DNA from: a virus
DNA length: 41,957 nucleotides
IMG/VR virus record: IMGVR_UViG_3300045988_159394
Location: 1-41,957 of that record
Reading direction: 5' to 3' (one strand)
The notes under the pieces are model-generated. The model had not been told where the DNA came from and did not search any database. It was given only the letters and a program-made list of their open reading frames with translations. Position 1 is the first letter of the stretch. Every line of letters starts with the position of its first letter. The translations under genes and the position numbers were made by a program. Positions 1-41,957 of the stretch are shown here, piece after piece.

Positions 1-534
1 ACCTGGGAAGATATAGACTTCAAGAAGAATGTGGTCAAGGTATCAAAAACACTCTACAATCCGACGAATAACGCTGAAAAATATGAGCTTCTCCCTCCAA
101 AAACTGAAACGTCGGTCCGGGTCGTCACCATGCCGGCACACCTGGAAAAGGTACTGGCGGCATTCAAGTTCCAAGTCTCTAAACTCCGGATGGAATATAA
201 AGAGTTGTGGCACTATCCCAATGGCAGTAAACTGGGCTTCGTTTTTACGGCTCCGGCCCATCCTGGCCATCCTCTTACCCAGCGTCTCGTACAGACTCGT
301 ATAGACCGCATTCAGCGGCTTATGGATAATCCGGTGAGCCTTCACATACATCCTCACATTTTTCGTCATACCCATGCTTCCCTGCTGGCAGAGGCCGGGA
401 TAGACCTGGTACAAATCATGAAACGCTTAGGCCATGCCGACGATACGACGACACGACAGATATATCTGCACATCACAAAAACGCTGGCCACGGAAACGGC
501 AGAAAAGTTTGATGACCTGTTAAACAAAGCATAA
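1..534 (+). CDS. Tyrosine integrase, C-terminal part (in-frame continuation of the ORF that starts at 41194; about 392 aa in total across the circular junction)
   Basis: Position 1 is in frame with the ORF at 41194..41957 through the 119-nt terminal overlap. Catalytic boxes present: RIGEALAL, HIFRHTHASLL, LGH, RQIY. Stop TAA at 532-534. Confidence 0.9.
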   Translation, partial: TWEDIDFKKNVVKVSKTLYNPTNNAEKYELLPPKTETSVRVVTMPAHLEKVLAAFKFQVSKLRMEYKELWHYPNGSKLGFVFTAPAHPGHPLTQRLVQTRIDRIQRLMDNPVSLHIHPHIFRHTHASLLAEAGIDLVQIMKRLGHADDTTTRQIYLHITKTLATETAEKFDDLLNKA

Positions 535-3031: not shown

Positions 3032-4135
3032 CTAAATTAAGTTAATGGTATAGATAAGTTCAGCCAGCGTTTTATGCGTGTACACCCGCTTTGTTATGCC
3101 GTCCTGCTGATGCCCCAATATCATTTTCACGCATACGTCATTAGCTCCGGCAGAATTTAACAGGCTGGCACATGTATGCCTTGTCTCATGCAAGGTATGC
3201 ACCAGCCCAAGCCGTTTTAGCGCTTTTTCGTACCGCTCGTGATAAGATGTATAGCTGTACTTTTTTCCGGCCCGGTTAAGCACAAATATGTTTTTATCCT
3301 GGCAACGTGTCTCCCAGAATGGCAAAACTTTTTCGGCAATCGGAACGTGACGGTTCCTGCCCGCAGCCGTTTTGCTATCCCGTACTAGAAACCATCGTTC
3401 CGGAAGATGCACGTCCACAACCTTTAGCGCCAGTAGCTCGCCAATACGGACGCCGCAGTAAATCAACATAAGGATTTCCTGAATAGCCTCATCGTCCGTA
3501 TGCCCCCAGAGAAGGTCGATTTCTTCACGGCTATACGGCCGCTTCTTGTATACCGGGATGTTCTTCCCCAGTTCTAAGTACTGTGCGTAATTTTTATCTA
3601 CGATATCAGTCTTGCAAGCGTACTCATACAGCTGATATAGCAGTGTTTTGACTTTCTTCTGGCTGGAATATGACAATCCTTTTTCTCGTACTTTGTCCAT
3701 CACCGCCTGGATTTGCTTATATCGAACATCGATGAAAGACATCCTCCAGAGGTCTGAGCAATACGCATAAGCTGACTCATAACTTGTTTTTGAACTACTG
3801 CCGATCATGGGCCATTTTTCCTGTTTCCATTCGTGATACAGCTCTTCGAATGTCGGGCCGTCGGCTTTCGACCGAACAAACTTGCCACCGTTGAGCTTAA
3901 GCAGATACCTGAACGCCTCCTCCCGTGTTTCAAAACTGCCGAGATATTTCTGCCTGCCTTCAATACTTTTGCATATCGCATATGGTTTGCGGCGGTTGCC
4001 ACCCATTTTGCGAATGCATCCAAACCCGTTAGGCAACCGCATAGCCTCACCTCCTTTTATAATTTCTTCCGCGACCATCGTAAGGTCGTCAATAATGCTA
4101 CTAATTTCGGTGCATACGATTTTCCAATTTTCCAT
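3032..4135 (-). CDS. Second tyrosine recombinase (lambda-Int-like, with an AP2-like arm-binding N-domain), nested between the lysis and tail-fibre genes
   Basis: N-terminal RLPNGFGCIRKMGGNRRKPYA...GSFETREEAFRYL (Integrase_AP2-like). Catalytic GVRIGELLAL, HETRHTCASLL, ILGH, RVYTH. RBS GGAGG-10nt-ATG; an alternative GTG start at 4141. Confidence 0.85.
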   Translation of the reverse strand: MENWKIVCTEISSIIDDLTMVAEEIIKGGEAMRLPNGFGCIRKMGGNRRKPYAICKSIEGRQKYLGSFETREEAFRYLLKLNGGKFVRSKADGPTFEELYHEWKQEKWPMIGSSSKTSYESAYAYCSDLWRMSFIDVRYKQIQAVMDKVREKGLSYSSQKKVKTLLYQLYEYACKTDIVDKNYAQYLELGKNIPVYKKRPYSREEIDLLWGHTDDEAIQEILMLIYCGVRIGELLALKVVDVHLPERWFLVRDSKTAAGRNRHVPIAEKVLPFWETRCQDKNIFVLNRAGKKYSYTSYHERYEKALKRLGLVHTLHETRHTCASLLNSAGANDVCVKMILGHQQDGITKRVYTHKTLAELIYTINLI

Positions 4136-4159
4136 AGCCACTAAGCCTCCTTCGTGGCT

Positions 4160-4394
4160 ATGCTACATCAAAAATTTTAGACAGTGGGCAAATGTAACAG
4201 CAAAGACGACGCCAACGGAAATTTCTTTACCTTTAGCCGCAACATACCTGAAGTCTGTCGGCGGCATCCAAAATGGCCCTATTACCGGGATAACCTTCTC
4301 CGTTTATTACTCTGACTCGAAGCTCTGGGCAGTATCCAGTAACTCAGATCCGGGAGCAAACATCAATGTCATAGTGATTTGCGTTAAGGCTTAA
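4160..4394 (+). pseudogene. Start-less, inverted paralogue of the 99-aa fibre-tip gene (silent cassette). It begins with a degenerate copy of the fibre 5' end.
   Basis: Plus-strand frame open to TAA at 4392-4394 with no usable start. ...KSVGGIQNGPITGITFSV... aligns with TSGGVYDAINNGITISV of the 99-aa protein. ATGCTACATCAAAAATTTTAGAC at about 4160 resembles ATGGCTACTAAATTTTTAGAT, the 5' end of 5097..5396. Confidence 0.45.
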
Positions 4395-4410
4395 ACAGTG
4401 GGGAAGATGC

Positions 4411-4611
4411 ATGAGCGAAACATTTAACGGATATTCCATTGCTTTTAATACGGAACCCATCGTAATAGGGGTGCATTACGGTACACAGACAGATGTTAAC
4501 GTCGTAGCATCAAGCGCATTGGGTACAAGCGGGCTTTTAAATTGCTATTTTTTCCACGCTAATCATGATTCTGATAAGGTATCAGTAAACTGGATAGCAA
4601 TAGGTCTATAG
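4411..4611 (+). CDS. 66-aa protein, truncated paralogue of the C-terminus of the 161-aa protein; ends ...NWIAIGL
   Basis: ORF track. The C-terminus HANHDSDKVSVNWIAIGL matches GSNSDDSMDAYWIAIGL of 4606..5091. Weak RBS. Confidence 0.45.
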   Translation: MSETFNGYSIAFNTEPIVIGVHYGTQTDVNVVASSALGTSGLLNCYFFHANHDSDKVSVNWIAIGL

Positions 4612-4627
4612 GCCAATAGCTATCCAG
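4590..4627. repeat. 38-bp imperfect palindrome with two abutting TAG stops at its centre (CTA|TAG), shared by the two convergent ORFs
   Basis: ctggatagcaataggtcta|taggccaatagctatccag. The 9-bp outer arms are perfect; 16/19 positions match overall. Confidence 0.8.
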
Positions 4628-5091
4628 TATGCATCCATGCTATCATCACTATTACTCCCGACATCGAGCGTAAAGCCCCCTAACGTGTCATTTTCCCTGG
4701 GCTTGGATTCATAAAATGCTGTTCCTTGGTGATTTGTAATAATTACTCGATACGAGGTAAACATTATTGGGAACGATACCCATCCATGAGTGCTATTTCC
4801 CCACTGTATAATTAGGCCGCCAAAAAGTGAACCAAAGCAAAGATATCCACTCGTACCAGTCAGGTATTTTACTCCGGTCGCATCCAGTACCAGCTTTACG
4901 ATTTTAGCCGCAAAAGAATCAGATGACAGTGTGCTGATCAGGCTGCCGAGCGTCGTGCTGGCCAGGGTATTCACGATGCCCTGGTTCCAGTCCGTGACCT
5001 GAGCTACTTCGGTTTCCGGATGAATGGTATCATACGATTTTGTCGTTTTATTCCAGTGATGTAAAATGCCTTTTAAAATGCTCATTTTCAT
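4606..5091 (-). CDS. 161-aa protein downstream of the 99-aa fibre paralogue (candidate fibre-tip partner or assembly chaperone); ends ...YWIAIGL
   Basis: ORF track. The likely real start is the second ATG (5083-5085), which has AGGAGGA 7 nt upstream. Confidence 0.6.
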   Translation of the reverse strand: MKMSILKGILHHWNKTTKSYDTIHPETEVAQVTDWNQGIVNTLASTTLGSLISTLSSDSFAAKIVKLVLDATGVKYLTGTSGYLCFGSLFGGLIIQWGNSTHGWVSFPIMFTSYRVIITNHQGTAFYESKPRENDTLGGFTLDVGSNSDDSMDAYWIAIGL

Positions 5092-5096
5092 TCCTC

Positions 5097-5396
5097 CTAT
5101 TCGCTGACTTCAAGCCAAAGTGTGTTCTGGTCGGTCGGCTCTGTGCCGCCGACGTACAAATCTTCTGTCGGCACTTCTATCCATGTGCTGGATCCAGCAG
5201 ATGCTTCGACGCTTATCGTGATGCCGTTATTAATCGCATCGTATACACCGCCGCTGGTGACGGGGTTGGTACTGCCAGACGTGGGCTTGCTGTCGAACGT
5301 CAATTTATCCTGCTTTGCCGCAATCAGTGTCTTAATCTTACTGACTGCATATTTCAGCCCGGCCGCATCTAAAAATTTAGTAGCCATTTCCCTCAC
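5097..5396 (-). CDS. Short tail-fibre paralogue (99 aa) sharing the N-terminus MATKFLDxxGLKY with the 312-aa fibre
   Basis: MATKFLDAAGLKY versus MATKFLDLDGLKY. The 5' DNA ATGGCTACTAAATTTTTAGAT matches the 312-aa gene's ATGGCAACGAAATTCTTAGAT. Confidence 0.65.
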   Translation of the reverse strand: MREMATKFLDAAGLKYAVSKIKTLIAAKQDKLTFDSKPTSGSTNPVTSGGVYDAINNGITISVEASAGSSTWIEVPTEDLYVGGTEPTDQNTLWLEVSE

Positions 5397-5399
5397 CGC

Positions 5400-6338
5400 C
5401 TAAGCAAAGCATGTATCAATTTCAGTCTGACTCAGCGCCGAGTAGGTGACTATGCTGGATGAATTTGCCGGCGTATATCCGAGGGCTGCTGTGACATTAG
5501 CTGACGTCAGCGAGACGACGCCGGACGACACGGTAATGTTGCTTCCAATTTTCACCCCCCCTAAAACGCTGGAAGTAGCTGCCGGCAATGTGTAGTTACT
5601 GAGCCCGGCCAGCTTATTTTTTTCGGCCGTCGTGTAGTCATTCGTGCTGAGTCCTTTGCCACTGACTTTCTTGACGTAAGTCGTCGAAATCGTGTTGCCA
5701 TCGCCATCACGGACGGCTTTATCGGCAGTGCTAACGGCGTCGTTGAGCAGGACATAGGCGGTTCCAGTCCATCTGTATACGTCCTTATCCGTACCACCGA
5801 TATCCAGATATAATGTGTTTTCTGCTCCGGTGATTTCTGTTGTATGAGCTGCTTCTTTGTAAAATTTTCCGCCGCTGTAATAGCCTTCAACCGCCTGTCC
5901 AATGTCACCTGGTATATACTGCGTCGGGATTTTGCCGTCAGATCCGAGCGGGGCAACGCCGTTTGCCGTACCGATGAGCGATGTAGCGATACGTGCTGTG
6001 CTATCCGTAGCGTGAATAGTAATGTTTGCCGAGCCATCAAAACTAACCCCGTTGATAGTCCGTGCTGTTGCCAGCTTTGCCGCCGTATCGGCTGCACCGG
6101 CAGTCGATGCTTTTGCGCCGATTCCAAGGTAGGTTTTTGCCGCATCTGTTTTAGTCAAATAGATACTCGTTGCATCGGTTTTACTCAACTTCGTATTATC
6201 ATTAATCGTGATACCCGTTTTATTGAGTGCGACGCCGTTAATTGTAATGCCCTGGGGTACATATTTTCCGTCGTTCGCCGCATCCATTTTATTTTTAAAA
6301 TATTTCAGGCCGTCGAGATCTAAGAATTTCGTTGCCAT
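5400..6338 (-). CDS. Tail fibre protein (312 aa) with KGLSTNDYT-type repeat
   Basis: Repeats LSKTDATSIYLTKTDAAKTYL and GLSTNDYTTAEKNKL typical of Firmicute prophage fibres; located in the tail module. Confidence 0.7.
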   Translation of the reverse strand: MATKFLDLDGLKYFKNKMDAANDGKYVPQGITINGVALNKTGITINDNTKLSKTDATSIYLTKTDAAKTYLGIGAKASTAGAADTAAKLATARTINGVSFDGSANITIHATDSTARIATSLIGTANGVAPLGSDGKIPTQYIPGDIGQAVEGYYSGGKFYKEAAHTTEITGAENTLYLDIGGTDKDVYRWTGTAYVLLNDAVSTADKAVRDGDGNTISTTYVKKVSGKGLSTNDYTTAEKNKLAGLSNYTLPAATSSVLGGVKIGSNITVSSGVVSLTSANVTAALGYTPANSSSIVTYSALSQTEIDTCFA

Positions 6339-6347
6339 ATTTTCCTC

Positions 6348-6656
6348 CTAAAAAATCGCATCAATATCCATATTTAAGATTGTATCTGCCAATGCGTCTT
6401 TTCCAGCCGGCCCTTGTGGGCCGACTGGTCCTTGTGGCCCAGTATCTCCCTTCGGACCTTTTATATCCACCGGGGCTGGATTATCCCGGCCGCCGTCATT
6501 GGTCCAAGATAATATGCCGTCATCCGTGATGTGTGGCGTATAGACTGTCCCTTTAGCCCCGGCCATGCCTACACCTACGGTTAGGGTATTCCCAGCGCTC
6601 AGACAAGCGGACAACGCAGGCGACCGTGCTGTAAGCACAGCCTGTAGTTTATTCAT
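6348..6656 (-). CDS. Collagen-like (G-X-Y) repeat protein, about 102 aa
   Basis: GPKGDTGPQGPVGPQGPAGK. Start placed at MNKLQ, preceded by AGGAGGTGG. The ORF track's longer frame is 6348..6830. Confidence 0.6.
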   Translation of the reverse strand: MNKLQAVLTARSPALSACLSAGNTLTVGVGMAGAKGTVYTPHITDDGILSWTNDGGRDNPAPVDIKGPKGDTGPQGPVGPQGPAGKDALADTILNMDIDAIF

Positions 6657-6667
6657 GATGCCACCTC

Positions 6668-6985
6668 CTACGTCGTCGTGACATCCGGCAGCATATGGAA
6701 CTTGCCCGGGCCTATTGTCTGATGCGCCCCATCGGCCAACGTCAGTTGTACATCCCATACATAATCGCCATATGCCTGGCCCTGAGTCTTTTCGTGCGTC
6801 AAATCTACGACGGACCCGTCCATCGGACATTGCAGGACGTAGTCGGTATCGTCATAGGTACGCTTGACAGAGAAGACGCCGGTATACCCAGTGATGGCTG
6901 TACCGTCCGCCTGCACCGGTTGGATAGTAAAACTGTCATCGTCACCGCGTACGTAGTAGATGTCCATGCCTCTAATTTTCAGCAT
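6668..6985 (-). CDS. Hypothetical tail protein (105 aa)
   Basis: ORF track; operon position. Confidence 0.5.
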   Translation of the reverse strand: MLKIRGMDIYYVRGDDDSFTIQPVQADGTAITGYTGVFSVKRTYDDTDYVLQCPMDGSVVDLTHEKTQGQAYGDYVWDVQLTLADGAHQTIGPGKFHMLPDVTTT

Positions 6986-6997
6986 TGTATCACCTCG

Positions 6998-7591
6998 CTA
7001 CTCGACTATTTCTACCCACATGCCGGTATCGGCCATGCTTGCCGGCTTATCAGCTGTTTTAGACACGTACAGGCGGTTGCTGTGAGCGGTATCAGATGCA
7101 TTGTGCTCTGCAATCATCTCATCTACATCATCCCGTGTCGTATACACGATGGATTTGTCGATGACGATTTGTACATTAGCCGACGTACTGCATACGATTT
7201 CCACCTCAAGGCGGCTCTGCGATACTGGTGTATCTTTGTTTGGCATATAGTCATAATTATTGCCGGCATTAGAGTAGGCATATAGTGTCTCCGTGCCGTT
7301 ATCCAGCTGCGCGAATACACCTAATTCTCTACTAATGAATCCTTCATCAAGTGATGTGTTACCAGTGTCAAAGGTAAGCACCAACAGTTCTTTATTGCTG
7401 TCATCTACTTTCGTAATCGGCAATGTCATTTTAGGCGTTTTCAGATCCGTAAATTTTAAAATATTGTCACTGTCTGTGATGACGCCGCTCCCGAGCTTCC
7501 CTTTCGTAAATTTCAGTGTATGGCCATTTTGCGCCTGGATGAGCATCTGCAATCCGGCCTCTGTAAACGTCAATGTTGGAAATTGTGCCAT
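6998..7591 (-). CDS. Tail-collar fibre / XkdV-like protein
   Basis: N-terminal MAQFPTLTFTEAGLQMLIQAQNGHTLKFTKGKLGSG, as in tail-collar fibre family proteins; follows the XkdU-like gene. Confidence 0.55.
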   Translation of the reverse strand: MAQFPTLTFTEAGLQMLIQAQNGHTLKFTKGKLGSGVITDSDNILKFTDLKTPKMTLPITKVDDSNKELLVLTFDTGNTSLDEGFISRELGVFAQLDNGTETLYAYSNAGNNYDYMPNKDTPVSQSRLEVEIVCSTSANVQIVIDKSIVYTTRDDVDEMIAEHNASDTAHSNRLYVSKTADKPASMADTGMWVEIVE

Positions 7592-7594
7592 GTT

Positions 7595-8248
7595 TTAACC
7601 TCCTGCCTGTATAGTCTGTTTATGATACTGATGGATGATGGCCCCCGCTGCATACAGCGTTGTCGGTGATATCTTATTATTCGGCTGCAGTGTCATCCCG
7701 ATGCGCATTATCTTACAGTTCCGGACAATGCCGGCAGTGTAAACGGCCAGCCTTCCTTTTGTATACGTCAGCAGCGTATGGCCAATGTGTGCCGGGATAT
7801 ACGTATTGATGGCGTCCTCCAGTCCATCATAGTCCAGTACCTGACCGCCATGATGCAGTATCTCTATACTGTACGTTTCCGGGTGGTCGATGACAACGGC
7901 CTGACCGTCTGCTACGTAGAGATTGACCAGTCGTGTTAAAAACGGCACGGTAACGGAATCAACGCCGGCCAGCTTCATCAGTATTTTGTTCCGCCTGGTC
8001 TGTAAGGTATCCGCTGATTCATGCTCCAATCCGACAAATTCTTCCCAGTCATCCAGCCCCCACGTTGCTGTCTTTACAAATGCCTGTTGTGCCGCATCTG
8101 TCAAAGTCAGTCGCTGTATTTCATGCTCATGAGACAACGTCCCTAGTGTATCCGAAAAAGTAGCATCATGAAAAAGGAAGGTGGGAAGATACCGTCTCAG
8201 TTCAACAGGCGTATTCCGCAGGAATCGGAAATCCGGGGTATCAGCCAT
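7595..8248 (-). CDS. XkdU-like (DUF2313) tail protein
   Basis: Size and position after baseplate J in a PBSX-like layout. Confidence 0.5.
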   Translation of the reverse strand: MADTPDFRFLRNTPVELRRYLPTFLFHDATFSDTLGTLSHEHEIQRLTLTDAAQQAFVKTATWGLDDWEEFVGLEHESADTLQTRRNKILMKLAGVDSVTVPFLTRLVNLYVADGQAVVIDHPETYSIEILHHGGQVLDYDGLEDAINTYIPAHIGHTLLTYTKGRLAVYTAGIVRNCKIMRIGMTLQPNNKISPTTLYAAGAIIHQYHKQTIQAGG

Positions 8249-9272
8249 TGAGTGTCACCTCCGTCACCTTAGGTATCTGCTCATCTGTCAAAGAAATATT
8301 CTTCACATCACCATTGATAGTGAGAGAATCATAATCTGTGACGTTTGTAGATTCATCGTCAATAATCATCTTCCCTATAACAGCATACGAAACCTTTCCG
8401 CCACCAAAATTCCGGGACGTAAAATAATTGTTCAGCAGTATCTTGATGGCATCTGCATCTCCTTTGCCCTTGGTAGGCGTCAGTTCGATATGAAGTTCTA
8501 AAATAGCCGGTGCGACTACGGACACCGTGGCCCCGATAGGATGTTTTGTTTCAATAGTGTTGGACACTTGTGTCAACAGATTCGATGACGCCGGATTTCC
8601 GCTGGAATCTGTAATGATGACTTTTACAGTGCCGTTACCGTTCCAGAGTGGAACGACTGTCACATGACCAACACCCGCTATAGATGTCGCCCACTCGATA
8701 TAATCATTCACATTCCCTGATGTAGCCGGCTGCCGTACTTTAAAAATCAGCCGATTGTATAAGGTGGCGTCGTCTTCTTCATCAAATCCATCATAGGTAG
8801 CGTCGGCATTCGTTACAGAGCTGATACCTGGTATAGACATAGGGATGACCGTAATCGTACCGGCTTTTACATTTCCTATCGTGCCGGCAGTACTGCACTC
8901 AACAGGGATATCACCAGACTGGGTAATTGAAGCGGCTTTCGTCGTATAGAAAGCAATTCCTGTAAACGTCTGGAATACACTTCCCTGTGGTACAGTCCCA
9001 TTGCCGGATACTGTGACCCTGCCTTTGGCCTTGACGGCCTGCCGACGGAAAATGCCATGTTCTTCTGCCCGCATTTCGAGGTACTCACCCCAGCTGGTCC
9101 GGGCAAACATGGCTTTATAGGCTTGTTCCCGTTCGACTTCTTGTTTGGCGAACTCGATACTATTGGCGGCAAACGAATCATACGTAAAGGTGCCTTCAAA
9201 ACTCGATACAGATGAACTCGAGTTTTCCTGCAGTTCTTTTAAAATCTCATCCTGCCCTCTGGCTTCATACAT
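8241..9272 (-). CDS. Baseplate J-like protein (XkdT-like)
   Basis: 343 aa; position between the XkdS-like and XkdU-like genes. Confidence 0.65.
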   Translation of the reverse strand: MYEARGQDEILKELQENSSSSVSSFEGTFTYDSFAANSIEFAKQEVEREQAYKAMFARTSWGEYLEMRAEEHGIFRRQAVKAKGRVTVSGNGTVPQGSVFQTFTGIAFYTTKAASITQSGDIPVECSTAGTIGNVKAGTITVIPMSIPGISSVTNADATYDGFDEEDDATLYNRLIFKVRQPATSGNVNDYIEWATSIAGVGHVTVVPLWNGNGTVKVIITDSSGNPASSNLLTQVSNTIETKHPIGATVSVVAPAILELHIELTPTKGKGDADAIKILLNNYFTSRNFGGGKVSYAVIGKMIIDDESTNVTDYDSLTINGDVKNISLTDEQIPKVTEVTLNG

Positions 9273-41193: not shown

Positions 41194-41957
41194 ATGCACG
41201 TTTACAAAAAGCCGTCAGGGCTATGGGCCTATAAAATTGACATTGGTAAAAACCCCCGAACTGGGAAACGGCAGCAGAAAGAAAAAGGTGGTTTTAAGCG
41301 GGCAAAGGATGCCAGGATAGCTGGTGAAGAAGCACTGCAGCGGTATCGGAACAAGGGCTTTGCACGCCCGGAAGCGGTGACGTTTGGCGATTTTGCCCAG
41401 GAATGGCTGAAGGCATACGCGGTTTCCGCCAAAATATCATCCGTCCGGATCCGGAAGCATCAGCTGGGGCACCTCAACCGGTACTTTGAAAAAATCCCTA
41501 TCCAGGGAATCCATAAGAAGCAATACCAGGACGCCTTATTGTCCCTTGCAAAGACGCTTGCTCCTAATACTATTTCAGGGATTCATGCCACGGCCAAAAT
41601 GATTTTCAAACGGGCCATAGAATATGAGCTTATCTATTCAGACCCGACGGAGTTTGCTACAGTACCCCGGCCAAAGCGGAAAATCGTAGATCCAGACGAA
41701 AATGTGCCCGCCTATCTGGAAAAGTCTCAGCTTCTCGATTTCCTGCAAACAGCCAAAGAAAAAGGAATCACGCCCGATTATCCTTTATTTATGCTTCTGG
41801 CTTATACGGGCTTGCGGATTGGAGAGGCCCTGGCTCTCACCTGGGAAGATATAGACTTCAAGAAGAATGTGGTCAAGGTATCAAAAACACTCTACAATCC
41901 GACGAATAACGCTGAAAAATATGAGCTTCTCCCTCCAAAAACTGAAACGTCGGTCCG
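41194..41957 (+). CDS. Tyrosine integrase, N-terminal part (AP2-like arm-binding domain); continues at window position 1
   Basis: RBS AAGGAGGT-5nt-ATG. MHVYKKPSGLWAYKIDIGKNPRTGKRQQKEKGGFKRAKDARIAGEEAL. In frame with 1..534. Confidence 0.9.
   Translation, partial: MHVYKKPSGLWAYKIDIGKNPRTGKRQQKEKGGFKRAKDARIAGEEALQRYRNKGFARPEAVTFGDFAQEWLKAYAVSAKISSVRIRKHQLGHLNRYFEKIPIQGIHKKQYQDALLSLAKTLAPNTISGIHATAKMIFKRAIEYELIYSDPTEFATVPRPKRKIVDPDENVPAYLEKSQLLDFLQTAKEKGITPDYPLFMLLAYTGLRIGEALALTWEDIDFKKNVVKVSKTLYNPTNNAEKYELLPPKTETSV
41839..41957. repeat. Terminal redundancy: these bases duplicate positions 1..119 exactly, marking the window as a circular genome
   Basis: Exact 119-nt identity read directly from the sequence. 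Confidence 0.95.

What the first reader, a model, noticed from the sequence alone, without database searches (positions are those of the whole stretch)
3032..5400. Tyrosine-recombinase-linked, mirrored tail-fibre-tip cassettes: candidate G-segment-like host-range switch that uses a lambda-type integrase instead of a serine invertase
A second tyrosine recombinase (3032..4135) sits between the lysis cassette and the tail fibres, far from the genome's real int/attP. Beside it the fibre-tip genes are duplicated in mirror image. On the minus strand lie the 99-aa gene and its 161-aa partner. On the plus strand, converging on them, lie a start-less homologue of the 99-aa gene body (…4394) and the 66-aa truncated paralogue of the 161-aa C-terminus (4411..4611). 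The two partner ORFs meet tail-to-tail at a 38-bp palindrome. The 99-aa gene shares its N-terminus with the 312-aa fibre. A degenerate inverted copy of that 5' end (ATGCTACATCAAAAATTTTAGAC) lies 20-50 nt upstream of the recombinase start, the position invertases usually occupy relative to their site. The layout is Sc-[Sv U | U' Sv']-recombinase, as in Mu G or P1 C, but the catalytic chemistry is tyrosine and the enzyme has an AP2-like arm-binding domain. The cassettes are divergent enough (about 60% DNA identity, frame differences) that the switch may now be decayed or may use short cryptic core sites.
Basis: partly seen in the sequence, partly recalled or inferred. Interest (0 to 1): 0.85.

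Follow-up and report, generated by a model that had tools for sequence, protein, structure and literature searches.

The report
Phage tail-fibre tip shufflon (tyrosine recombinase)
This Megasphaera phage has a small DNA-inversion switch next to a tyrosine recombinase that can give one tail-fibre protein any of three receptor-binding tips; the same kind of switch is already known in Bifidobacterium phages (the Rin shufflon).

Summary
A 14-nt motif, TANACAGTGGGSAA, occurs three times in 42 kb (0.09 expected), all beside the recombinase: 4178-4191 (+), 4392-4405 (+) and 4797-4810 (-). The minus copy lies inside the 161-aa fibre gene, at codons Q-W-G where its Gp53-like_C tip domain begins. Each plus copy opens, in frame, a silent tip cassette of about 70 aa. 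So there is one constant N-terminus and three alternative C-termini, not the proposed Sc-[Sv U | U' Sv'] layout. The ...4394 ORF belongs to the tip-cassette family, not to the 99-aa gene. The proposed inverted repeat with the 99-aa gene start is chance.

More than 40 related Megasphaera and Negativicutes phage loci have the same design, with up to 12 cassettes in mixed orientations. Two prophages with 99.9-100% identical flanks differ only in cassette order, and every junction falls on a site. No inverted isomer of this particular phage was found in assemblies.

Tyrosine-recombinase shufflons that vary phage receptor-binding proteins are already published: Rin (2018), Eggerthella (2022) and BV01-like phages (2026). 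This is a new member of a known kind. It differs in using an integrase-like enzyme with an extra N-terminal domain. Interest is moderate.

The parts
3032..4141 (-). Shufflon recombinase, tyrosine family. It is 369 aa from the GTG at 4141, or 367 aa from the ATG at 4135.
   Evidence: It matches PF00589 at E 3e-20. R232, K257, H318, R321, H344 and Y354 are invariant in 48 homologues. The closest solved folds are the Tn1549 and lambda integrases. In every close relative, the outermost site lies 40-41 nt before its start.
4133..4162 (-). Hairpin that encloses the ribosome-binding site and start codons of the recombinase. It may limit translation of the recombinase.
   Evidence: The arms are 13 nt and 92% complementary. 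Folding gives dG -21 kcal/mol with z -4.1. It is conserved in 6 related loci, with a compensatory C-G to U-A change in L001 and L002.
4178..4191 (+). Site A (TAGACAGTGGGCAA), the recombinase-proximal crossover site.
   Evidence: It is one of 3 motif copies in the window. Homology with L041 and L047 (94-97% identical beyond it) stops at 4187/4188, the last base of ACAGTGGG.
4182..4394 (+). Silent tip cassette A (QWANVTAK...VICVKA, stop at 4392-4394). It has no start codon of its own.
   Evidence: It is in frame with site A. It scores 23.6 bits against the cassette HMM, against a maximum of 13.8 bits in 500 shuffles.
4392..4405 (+). Site B (TAAACAGTGGGGAA). Its TAA is the stop codon of cassette A.
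4396..4611 (+). Silent tip cassette B (QWGRCMSETF...WIAIGL).
   Evidence: It matches PF21882 at E 8e-4. It is 96% identical to the expressed C-terminus of P0027 and P0051, and a near-identical tip is also the expressed C-terminus of P0137. In L007, L008, L009, L019, L072 and L073 it is joined to the constant part at exactly the predicted junction.
4589..4628 (.). Palindrome where cassette B and the expressed cassette meet tail to tail.
   Evidence: The arms are 20 nt and 85% complementary. Both cassettes end with codons for WIAIGL-stop. The RNA fold has z -2.5. This is probably a by-product of the shared C-terminal peptide.
4606..4806 (-). Expressed tip cassette 1 (QWGNSTHGW...WIAIGL), currently the C-terminus of the 161-aa protein.
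   Evidence: Residues 91-160 of the 161-aa protein match PF21882 Gp53-like_C at E 4e-8.
4797..4810 (-). Site C (TATACAGTGGGGAA), inside the fibre gene at codons I-Q-W-G. It is inverted relative to sites A and B.
   Evidence: Homology between loci breaks here.
4807..5091 (-). Constant N-terminal part of the variable fibre-tip protein, about 95 aa.
   Evidence: It is 80-85% identical in more than 100 database proteins that carry unrelated C-termini.
5097..5396 (-). The 99-aa gene, a neighbour in the fibre operon. It is not part of the switch.
   Evidence: It holds no site and shows no significant similarity to any cassette.

Best explanation
The locus is a three-cassette shufflon that changes the receptor-binding tip of a phage tail fibre.

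Anatomy. The 161-aa protein has a constant N-terminal part of about 95 aa and a C-terminal Gp53-like domain of about 66 aa. The boundary is the site TATACAGTGGGGAA, read as I-Q-W-G. Two further copies of the site lie downstream in inverted orientation. Each is followed in frame by a promoter-less alternative tip domain.

Mechanism. The adjacent tyrosine recombinase pairs the site in the gene with one of the inverted sites. It exchanges strands within the invariant ACAGTGGG and inverts the DNA between them (391 bp for C x B, 605 bp for C x A). This fuses the constant part to cassette B or cassette A. Four configurations and three proteins are possible.

What is shown and what is inferred. The sites, frames, domains, family-wide architecture and site-exact rearrangements between near-identical relatives are shown. 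Catalysis by this enzyme, switching in this particular phage and a change of host range are inferred.

Timing (inference). The recombinase gene follows the late fibre operon in the same direction, so it may act mainly during lytic growth. A lysogen would then keep the tip with which the phage entered.
For: - The motif occurs 3 times against 0.09 expected, only at this locus, with one copy inverted inside the gene.
- All three copies are in frame with Gp53-like or cassette-family ORFs.
- Six loci with 88-92% identical recombinases share the layout. The last site lies 40-41 nt before the recombinase start, and homology breaks exactly at the sites.
- Thirty-two further viral loci carry 1-12 cassettes in mixed orientations, each opening with ACAGTGGG.
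- The same cassette clusters occur in both orientations and in different orders.
- L052 and L053 are 99.9-100% identical in their flanks. Three silent cassettes are in permuted order, with every junction at a site. In a simple model this needs at least 4 inversions.
- L051 has a scaffold gap at a site.
- The sites are constrained at the DNA level. The Gly codon after W is GGA in 113 of 113 cases, against 21% in background genes. The base before CAG is A in 145 of 148 cases, even where it is non-coding.
- In L052 and L053, positions 8-10 of the site travel with the downstream cassette and the bases before it travel with the upstream context. This places the crossover within ACAGTGGG.
- The recombinase has an intact catalytic set of residues.
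- Silent cassette B is the expressed tip elsewhere, joined at the predicted junction.
Against: - No inverted isomer of this phage was seen. At least 13 contigs from several projects, some 100% identical to the window, all show the window's configuration.
- The exact hybrid proteins are absent from a collection of 15 billion proteins.
- Two junction scans of viral contigs found nothing.
- Site A carries C at position 8.
- The best evidence of recent shuffling comes from a sub-family whose recombinase is only about 37% identical and lies on the opposite strand.
- The closest deposited phage relatives of the enzyme (30-33% identical) are ordinary integrases in lysogeny modules.
- No reads were available, so inversion was not observed directly.
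Confidence: 0.8

Rival explanations
1. Fossil or locked shufflon. The architecture is inherited from an active ancestor, but in this phage the switch no longer inverts or does so very rarely. Cassettes A and B would be silent relics.
For: - Every assembly of this phage has the same configuration.
- Site A deviates from the other two sites (GGGC).
- Decayed relatives exist. In L004 and L006 the site in the gene has mutated to ACAGTGGTTA. L074-L081 hold only direct sites.
Against: - The recombinase ORF and its catalytic residues are intact.
- Sites C and B are identical over 11 nt, and the difference in site A lies outside the inferred crossover core.
- Both silent cassettes are open in frame over 70-71 codons.
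- With three cassettes, only one of the four states expresses cassette 1. Identical lysogens are therefore expected if entry selects the tip.
- Assemblies report only the majority form.
Confidence: 0.15
2. Cassette mosaicism without programmed inversion. The recombinase would be a second integrase or belong to an unrelated inserted element. The cassettes would be exchanged between phages by homologous or illegitimate recombination at a conserved QWG-coding stretch.
For: - The enzyme is integrase-like, and its relatives in Butyrivibrio and Fusobacterium phages sit in lysogeny modules.
- Otherwise 94-97% identical phages carry wholly different cassette sets.
Against: - The recombinase is linked to the cassette array in most of the loci that extend far enough to show it. 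In every close relative, the outermost site lies 40-41 nt from its start.
- A separate ordinary integrase is present.
- Inverted, start-less cassettes make no sense without inversion.
- Synonymous and non-coding positions of the site are fixed.
- L052 and L053 differ by site-exact permutation with no point differences.
- An 8-13-nt repeat is too short for efficient homologous recombination (general knowledge).
Confidence: 0.04
3. One reading: a G-segment-like switch with mirrored Sv-U gene pairs. The 99-aa and 161-aa genes would be exchanged for plus-strand copies, using an inverted repeat at the 5' end of the 99-aa gene.
For: - The ORFs converge and meet at a palindrome.
- A site does lie just upstream of the recombinase.
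Against: - The ...4394 ORF is not related to the 99-aa gene. It belongs to the tip-cassette family.
- The proposed inverted repeat was not recovered.
- The true sites lie inside the 161-aa gene and in front of each cassette.
- Inversion at the proposed repeat would give MATKFLDSGQM-stop in one register. This follows from reading the sequence.
Confidence: 0.01

Closest known systems
Rin shufflon of Bifidobacterium breve and B. longum prophages (Mavrich et al. 2018, PMC6109161). Also reported in Eggerthella lenta prophages (PMC8778435).
   Same: It is phage-encoded. A tyrosine recombinase flanks an array of promoter-less variable C-terminal cassettes (Rv) of the receptor-binding protein. There is one constant N-terminal gene part (Rc). 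A short asymmetric repeat (11-bp rix) precedes every cassette and also lies inside the expressed gene. Inversions occur exactly at the sites, and the cassettes are only 6-30% identical to each other.
   Different: Hosts are Actinobacteria rather than Negativicutes. The Rin phages are siphoviruses with a TP901-1-like receptor-binding protein; here it is the tip of a baseplate fibre of a contractile-tail-type phage (sheath-initiator and baseplate J genes nearby), carrying a Gp53-like_C domain. The site sequences differ (TTCCCTAACCC versus TAnACAGTGGGKA). Rin is described as XerD-like and armless; this enzyme is integrase-like, with a modelled extra N-terminal domain. Sequence homology to Rin was not tested.
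R64 / IncI shufflon (Rci recombinase, sfx sites, PilV adhesin).
   Same: It is a multiple-inversion system driven by one tyrosine recombinase. It uses short asymmetric sites. It has a constant N-terminus and exchangeable C-termini of a host-recognition protein. Directly repeated sites persist without deletion.
   Different: It is a plasmid pilus adhesin, not a phage fibre. No PilV domain is present here. The site sequence is unrelated. R64 segments carry two tail-to-tail ORFs, whereas here each cassette carries its own site.
Gin/G (Mu), Cin/C (P1), Pin (e14) and Min (p15B) tail-fibre inversion systems.
   Same: The biological purpose is the same: alternative C-terminal parts of a tail fibre selected by DNA inversion, with the recombinase gene next to the invertible DNA.
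   Different: Those systems use serine invertases with a Fis-dependent enhancer, and they invert Sv plus a chaperone gene (U). Here the enzyme is a tyrosine recombinase (PF00589), only a domain of about 70 aa is exchanged, and no chaperone gene lies in the cassettes.
Tail-fibre shufflon of BV01-like Phocaeicola vulgatus phages (2026 preprint, PMC13596623).
   Same: A recombinase flanks a multi-cassette region that overlaps the 3' end of a tail-fibre gene. The motifs are directional and 10 bp long. Read data showed all configurations.
   Different: The host phylum, site (TGGGAGAACT) and cassette type differ. Activity was shown with reads in that study but not here.

Membership tests
Shufflon (multiple-inversion system driven by a tyrosine recombinase; Rci or Rin type) | A tyrosine recombinase gene lies directly beside the variable region, with an intact catalytic R-K-H-R-H-Y set. 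| tested here: met
   PF00589 at E 3e-20. R232, K257, H318, R321, H344 and Y354 are invariant in 48 homologues. The recombinase start lies 40 nt from site A.
Shufflon (multiple-inversion system driven by a tyrosine recombinase; Rci or Rin type) | At least three copies of a short asymmetric site, at least one of them inverted, confined to the locus. | tested here: met
   TANACAGTGGGSAA occurs 3 times (two plus, one minus) against 0.09 expected, and nowhere else in 42 kb.
Shufflon (multiple-inversion system driven by a tyrosine recombinase; Rci or Rin type) | One site lies inside the expressed gene at the boundary between constant and variable parts. The other sites precede promoter-less alternative 3' cassettes in the same reading frame. 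| tested here: met
   All three sites read Q-W and open ORFs of 66-71 codons. These ORFs belong to the Gp53-like or cassette family.
Shufflon (multiple-inversion system driven by a tyrosine recombinase; Rci or Rin type) | Alternative configurations that differ by inversion at the sites are observed in a population. | tested here: inconclusive
   For this phage, only one configuration was seen in at least 13 contigs, and no hybrid proteins are on record. For the family, L052 and L053 have near-identical flanks with permuted cassettes, and cassettes occur in both orientations across loci. Reads could not be examined.
Rin shufflon (Bifidobacterium prophages) | A XerD-like invertase that lacks an N-terminal arm-type domain. 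| tested here: not met
   The model shows four strands (residues 33-70) and a helix (73-83) before the core-binding domain. Full-length lambda Int aligns over 346 columns, against about 272-294 for core-only structures. Pfam detects no arm domain, so the nature of this domain is not settled.
Rin shufflon (Bifidobacterium prophages) | Sequence homology of the recombinase, the site (TTCCCTAACCC) and the cassettes to Rin, rix and Rv. | tested here: not met
   The site sequence is different (compared with PMC6109161). The cassettes are Gp53-like_C, not TP901-1 RBP-like. Recombinase-to-Rin identity was not tested because no Rin sequence was at hand.
R64-type shufflon | A PilV N-terminal domain in the variable protein and sfx sites with a GTGCCAA core. 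| tested here: not met
   Pfam finds only Gp53-like_C in the 161-aa protein. The site core is ACAGTGGG.
Gin / Cin / Pin / Min invertible tail-fibre segments | A serine invertase (resolvase domain), with inversion of an Sv plus U (chaperone) gene pair. | tested here: not met
   The adjacent enzyme is PF00589, with no resolvase hit. The cassettes are single domains of about 70 aa with no second gene.
Ordinary phage integrase (att-site integration and excision) | Located in the lysogeny module next to the repressor and attP, and the only integrase of the phage. | tested here: not met
   It lies between the fibre and lysis genes. A second integrase (392 aa in L042, with Arm-DNA-bind_4) sits at the prophage end, next to a gene with a Peptidase_S24 (repressor-type) domain, and spans the junction of the circular contig.

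The most novel reading that the evidence does not exclude
A lineage of ordinary integrase-type tyrosine recombinases has been recruited in Negativicutes phages as a dedicated invertase. These enzymes keep an N-terminal arm-like domain. They run tail-fibre-tip shufflons of up to 12 cassettes at a site embedded in the conserved QWG codons of the Gp53-like domain. The recombinase would be expressed only with the late genes and held down by a hairpin that sequesters its ribosome-binding site. Lysogens would therefore keep a heritable record of the tip used for entry, and each burst would re-diversify host range.
Probability: 0.3. Interest if true: 0.6.

Novelty: new member of a known kind. Interest (0 to 1): 0.45.

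Why it matters
Megasphaera and related Negativicutes are common gut and rumen bacteria, and their phages are almost unstudied. A widespread, easily recognised shufflon gives a direct handle on how these phages change host range. It has a 13-nt site, cassettes of about 70 aa and up to 12 tips per phage. It also supplies a natural library of interchangeable receptor-binding domains on a constant scaffold, which is useful for engineering phage tropism. It extends tyrosine-recombinase shufflons acting on phage receptor-binding proteins from Actinobacteria and Bacteroidota phages to a third bacterial lineage. It shows that an integrase-like enzyme, and not only a Xer-like one, can serve as the invertase. 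In annotation, such 'second integrases' and 'hypothetical 66-aa ORFs' should not be read as integration modules or as separate genes.

Tried and rejected
The repeat finder did not recover it, and joining there gives an early stop.
- Homology between the ...4394 ORF and the 99-aa protein. Not significant.
- Nucleotide search of INPHARED phages. No match. A protein search with the 161-aa protein also found none.
- Exact look-up of the 161-aa and 369-aa proteins. Not on record because gene callers used later starts. The 159-aa form is on 15 contigs.
- Search for isomers of this phage:
  - Exact hybrid proteins are not in the collection.
  - A 52-aa ORF that would be called only if cassette 1 were silent is not on record.
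  - Junction scans of viral contigs found no hits.
  - All contigs have the same configuration.
- Pfam and NCBIfam searches for an arm-binding or AP2 domain, or a named invertase family. Only generic Xer and integrase hits below cut-off were found.
- The palindrome as a terminator. It has no T-tract, was not called by the scan and has a modest z-score.
- A protein-based scan of genome contigs found nothing. A DNA pattern scan then gave Megasphaera hosts.
- A fourth ACAGTGGG at about 9706 (-) lacks the flanking TA and the A at position 9, so it is taken as chance.

Full report
**What is in the sequence.** The region lies in the late operon of a tailed phage, on the minus strand. In order it holds:
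- baseplate J-like (8241..9272) and baseplate/tail-protein (Tail_P2_I / Mu Gp48-type) genes (7595..8248);
- a tail-collar fibre N-terminal protein (6998..7591);
- a 312-aa fibre (5400..6338);
- a 99-aa gene (5097..5396);
- a 161-aa gene (4606..5091);
- a tyrosine recombinase (3032..4141);
- holin and amidase genes.

Residues 91-160 of the 161-aa protein match Pfam Gp53-like_C (PF21882, E 4e-8).

**The repeat that organises the locus.** The repeat finder gave two inverted pairs that share one arm: 4177-4193 with 4795-4811, and 4391-4405 with 4797-4811. Written as TANACAGTGGGSAA, the motif occurs exactly three times in the 41,957-nt window: 4178-4191 (+), 4392-4405 (+) and 4797-4810 (-). Chance predicts 0.09, and no shuffle out of 100 reached three.

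The minus copy lies inside the 161-aa gene and is read I-Q-W-G, at the start of the Gp53-like domain. Each plus copy is read Q-W in the frame of an ORF that runs 70-71 codons to a stop:
- cassette A, 4182..4394;

The three C-terminal modules align with each other. Cassette B matches PF21882 at E 8e-4. Cassette A is too divergent for pairwise BLAST. It scores 23.6 bits against an HMM built from 95 cassettes of other loci, against at most 13.8 bits for 500 shuffles.

The layout is therefore one constant N-terminus with three alternative tips. It is not two mirrored gene pairs.

**Relatives.**
- Recombinases 88-92% identical to this one occur in six public loci with the same layout. The last site lies 40-41 nt before the recombinase start, and nucleotide homology between loci breaks exactly at the sites.
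- A scan for the junction between the constant part and the site found 32 viral loci. Many hold large arrays, with 12 cassettes in L038, 9 in L037 and 7 in L021. Orientations are mixed, and every cassette opens in frame with ACAGTGGG.
- In those arrays the linked recombinase is 36-40% identical and lies on the opposite strand.
- The 109 cassettes fall into 75 clusters at 70% identity. The same clusters recur in either orientation and in different orders.
- The window's own tail-to-tail pair (cassette 1 | cassette B) recurs in L038 in the opposite orientation. The pair cassette B | QWGESTSP... occurs both ways round relative to the constant part.
- Cassette B is silent here but is the expressed tip in several other loci. 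P0027 and P0051 are 96% identical to it, and P0137 carries a near-identical tip. In L007, L008, L009, L019, L072 and L073 it is joined at exactly the junction predicted for a C x B inversion.
- Named hosts are Megasphaera hexanoica, M. cerevisiae, M. sueciensis, M. massiliensis, uncultured Megasphaera and an Acidaminococcus MAG.

**Evidence for recent activity.** L052 and L053 are two prophage copies from different samples. Their flanks are 99.9-100% identical, and they have the same expressed cassette and the same first silent cassette. The next three silent cassettes are in the order X,Y,Z in one and Z,Y,X in the other. Every junction is at a site. In a simple model of inversion between oppositely oriented sites, this needs at least four inversions. 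A third copy (L051) has a scaffold gap exactly at a site, and a fourth contig ends inside the array.

In these two loci the variable site positions 8-10 move with the downstream cassette, and the bases before the site stay with the upstream context. The exchange therefore happens within the invariant ACAGTGGG. That is the size of a tyrosine-recombinase overlap region (established knowledge).

**The site is a DNA signal, not only a protein motif.** Cassettes were re-identified by protein HMM without their first three residues, which avoids circularity. The results were:
- The codon after Trp is GGA in 113 of 113 glycine cases, against 21% GGA in other genes of this phage.
- It is GTA in 21 of 24 valine cases.
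- The base before CAG is A in 145 of 148 cases, although it falls in stop codons, non-coding DNA or an Ile codon.

A logo of 112 distinct sites gives T-A-n-A-C-A-G-T-G-G-G-K-A. Runs of up to seven directly repeated sites persist in L037. This suggests that deletion between direct repeats is disfavoured, as in the R64 shufflon (my knowledge).

**This particular phage.** The contig is a circular assembly with a 119-bp terminal repeat. The phage's ordinary integrase spans the junction, about 2.5 kb from the shufflon enzyme. The same phage occurs in several projects, and some copies are 100% identical over 8 kb. Every contig that covers the locus has the window's configuration. Exact hybrid proteins are not in a 15-billion-protein collection, and junction scans found nothing. 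So switching of this phage has not been observed.

This is weaker evidence against activity than it looks. A three-cassette shufflon has four states, and only one of them expresses cassette 1. A five-cassette shufflon has 48 states, and six of them express a given tip. Suppose lysogens descend from virions that entered with the matching tip, and the recombinase is silent in the prophage. Then identical configurations are expected here, and variation confined to the silent part is expected in L052 and L053. That is what is seen. This is an inference.

Decayed relatives do exist. In L004 and L006 the in-gene site has mutated to ACAGTGGTTA. L074-L081 have only direct sites.

**The enzyme.**
- The catalytic residues R232, K257, H318, R321, H344 and Y354 are invariant across 48 homologues.
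- The best sequence matches in the PDB are XerA and Xer-like recombinases, followed by the Tn1549 Int catalytic region. A core-binding domain (2khq) covers residues 97-192.
- Homologues begin at residue 34. The first 33 residues are specific to the close relatives.
- The AlphaFold model has mean pLDDT 84. It shows a helix at 2-29, then four strands (33-70) and a helix (73-83) before the core-binding domain.
- Full-length lambda integrase aligns over 346 columns. Core-only structures align over about 272-294 columns.
- Pfam and NCBIfam do not recognise an arm-type domain.
- Deposited phages with 30-33% identical proteins (Butyrivibrio phage Arawn, Fusobacterium phage FNU_1P) carry them in lysogeny modules as ordinary integrases. 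The invertase looks like a recruited integrase.

**Comparison with what is known.** Mavrich et al. (2018, PMC6109161) described the Rin shufflon of Bifidobacterium prophages. It has a constant Rc gene part, variable Rv cassettes, 11-bp asymmetric rix sites and a flanking tyrosine invertase, and they called it the first phage-encoded tyrosine-family invertase. The same design was reported in Eggerthella prophages (PMC8778435). A read-verified tail-fibre shufflon was reported in BV01-like Phocaeicola phages (PMC13596623).

I found no paper that describes such a system in Megasphaera or other Negativicutes, within the limits of the library. The present locus works like Rin and like the R64 Rci shufflon. 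It differs in site sequence, cassette fold, host lineage and enzyme architecture. It is not a Gin/Cin/Min-type system, because it has no serine invertase and no Sv-U gene pairs.

**Verdict.** The feature is real and well supported. Its general nature was correctly guessed and its anatomy was wrongly drawn. It is a new member of a known kind. Interest is moderate, at 0.45. The family is large, apparently undescribed and mechanistically clean, but the principle has been published since 2018. Activity in this phage remains to be shown.

Noticed in passing
window 1..119 and 41839..41957; integrase fragment 1..534 (+): The contig has a 119-bp terminal direct repeat, so the assembly is circular. The phage's ordinary integrase gene runs across the junction. 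On the circle it is only about 2.5 kb from the shufflon recombinase.
   Followed up: partly
window 4133..4162 (minus-strand mRNA): The hairpin CATAGCCAC-N12-GTGGCTATG encloses the Shine-Dalgarno sequence and start codons of the recombinase (dG -21 kcal/mol, z -4.1). It is conserved in six related loci, with a compensatory C-G to U-A change in L001 and L002. It may throttle translation of the invertase.
   Followed up: partly
L052 2450..3125 versus L053 4753..5428: Two prophages with 99.9-100% identical flanks carry three silent cassettes in reversed order but the same orientation. All junctions are at sites. L051 has a run of N at a site, and the L054 contig ends inside the array.
   Followed up: yes
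L004 5320..5345 and L006 (same layout): In these relatives the site inside the expressed fibre gene has changed to ACAGTGGTTA, within the inferred crossover core. Two intact sites still flank two silent cassettes. The expressed tip is probably locked.
   Followed up: partly
L074-L076 and L079-L081, about 3726..5093; L007 5483..6591: A sub-type has a convergent 301-aa recombinase that overlaps the end of the last cassette. In L074 only directly oriented sites were found, and the other loci listed have the same gene layout. No inversion seems possible in that state.
   Followed up: no
window 5349..5387 and 6300..6338: The 99-aa and 312-aa genes share a 39-nt 5' end (79% identity, MATKFLD..GLKY). 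In the related locus L041 the corresponding genes carry precomputed Pfam Mtd_N hits. Their relation to the variable tip protein is not known.
   Followed up: no
window 6348..6830 (-): This ORF has a short collagen-like Gly-X-Y run (GPKGDTGPQGPVGPQGPAGK). It overlaps the neighbouring 105-aa ORF (6668..6985) in another frame, so the true gene start is uncertain.
   Followed up: no
window 4188 (site A); L041 3826 and L047 24: Phages that are 94-97% identical to the window across the recombinase and lysis genes carry entirely different cassette sets. Homology ends at the last base of ACAGTGGG of site A. Whole cassette sets therefore appear to be swapped between phages at the sites.
   Followed up: partly
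L083 (Butyrivibrio phage Arawn) 3519..4574; L084 (Fusobacterium phage FNU_1P) 3501..4583: The nearest relatives of the recombinase in deposited phage genomes (30-33% identical) lie beside repressor genes in lysogeny modules. They look like ordinary integrases. In Arawn the gene is annotated only as hypothetical.
   Followed up: partly
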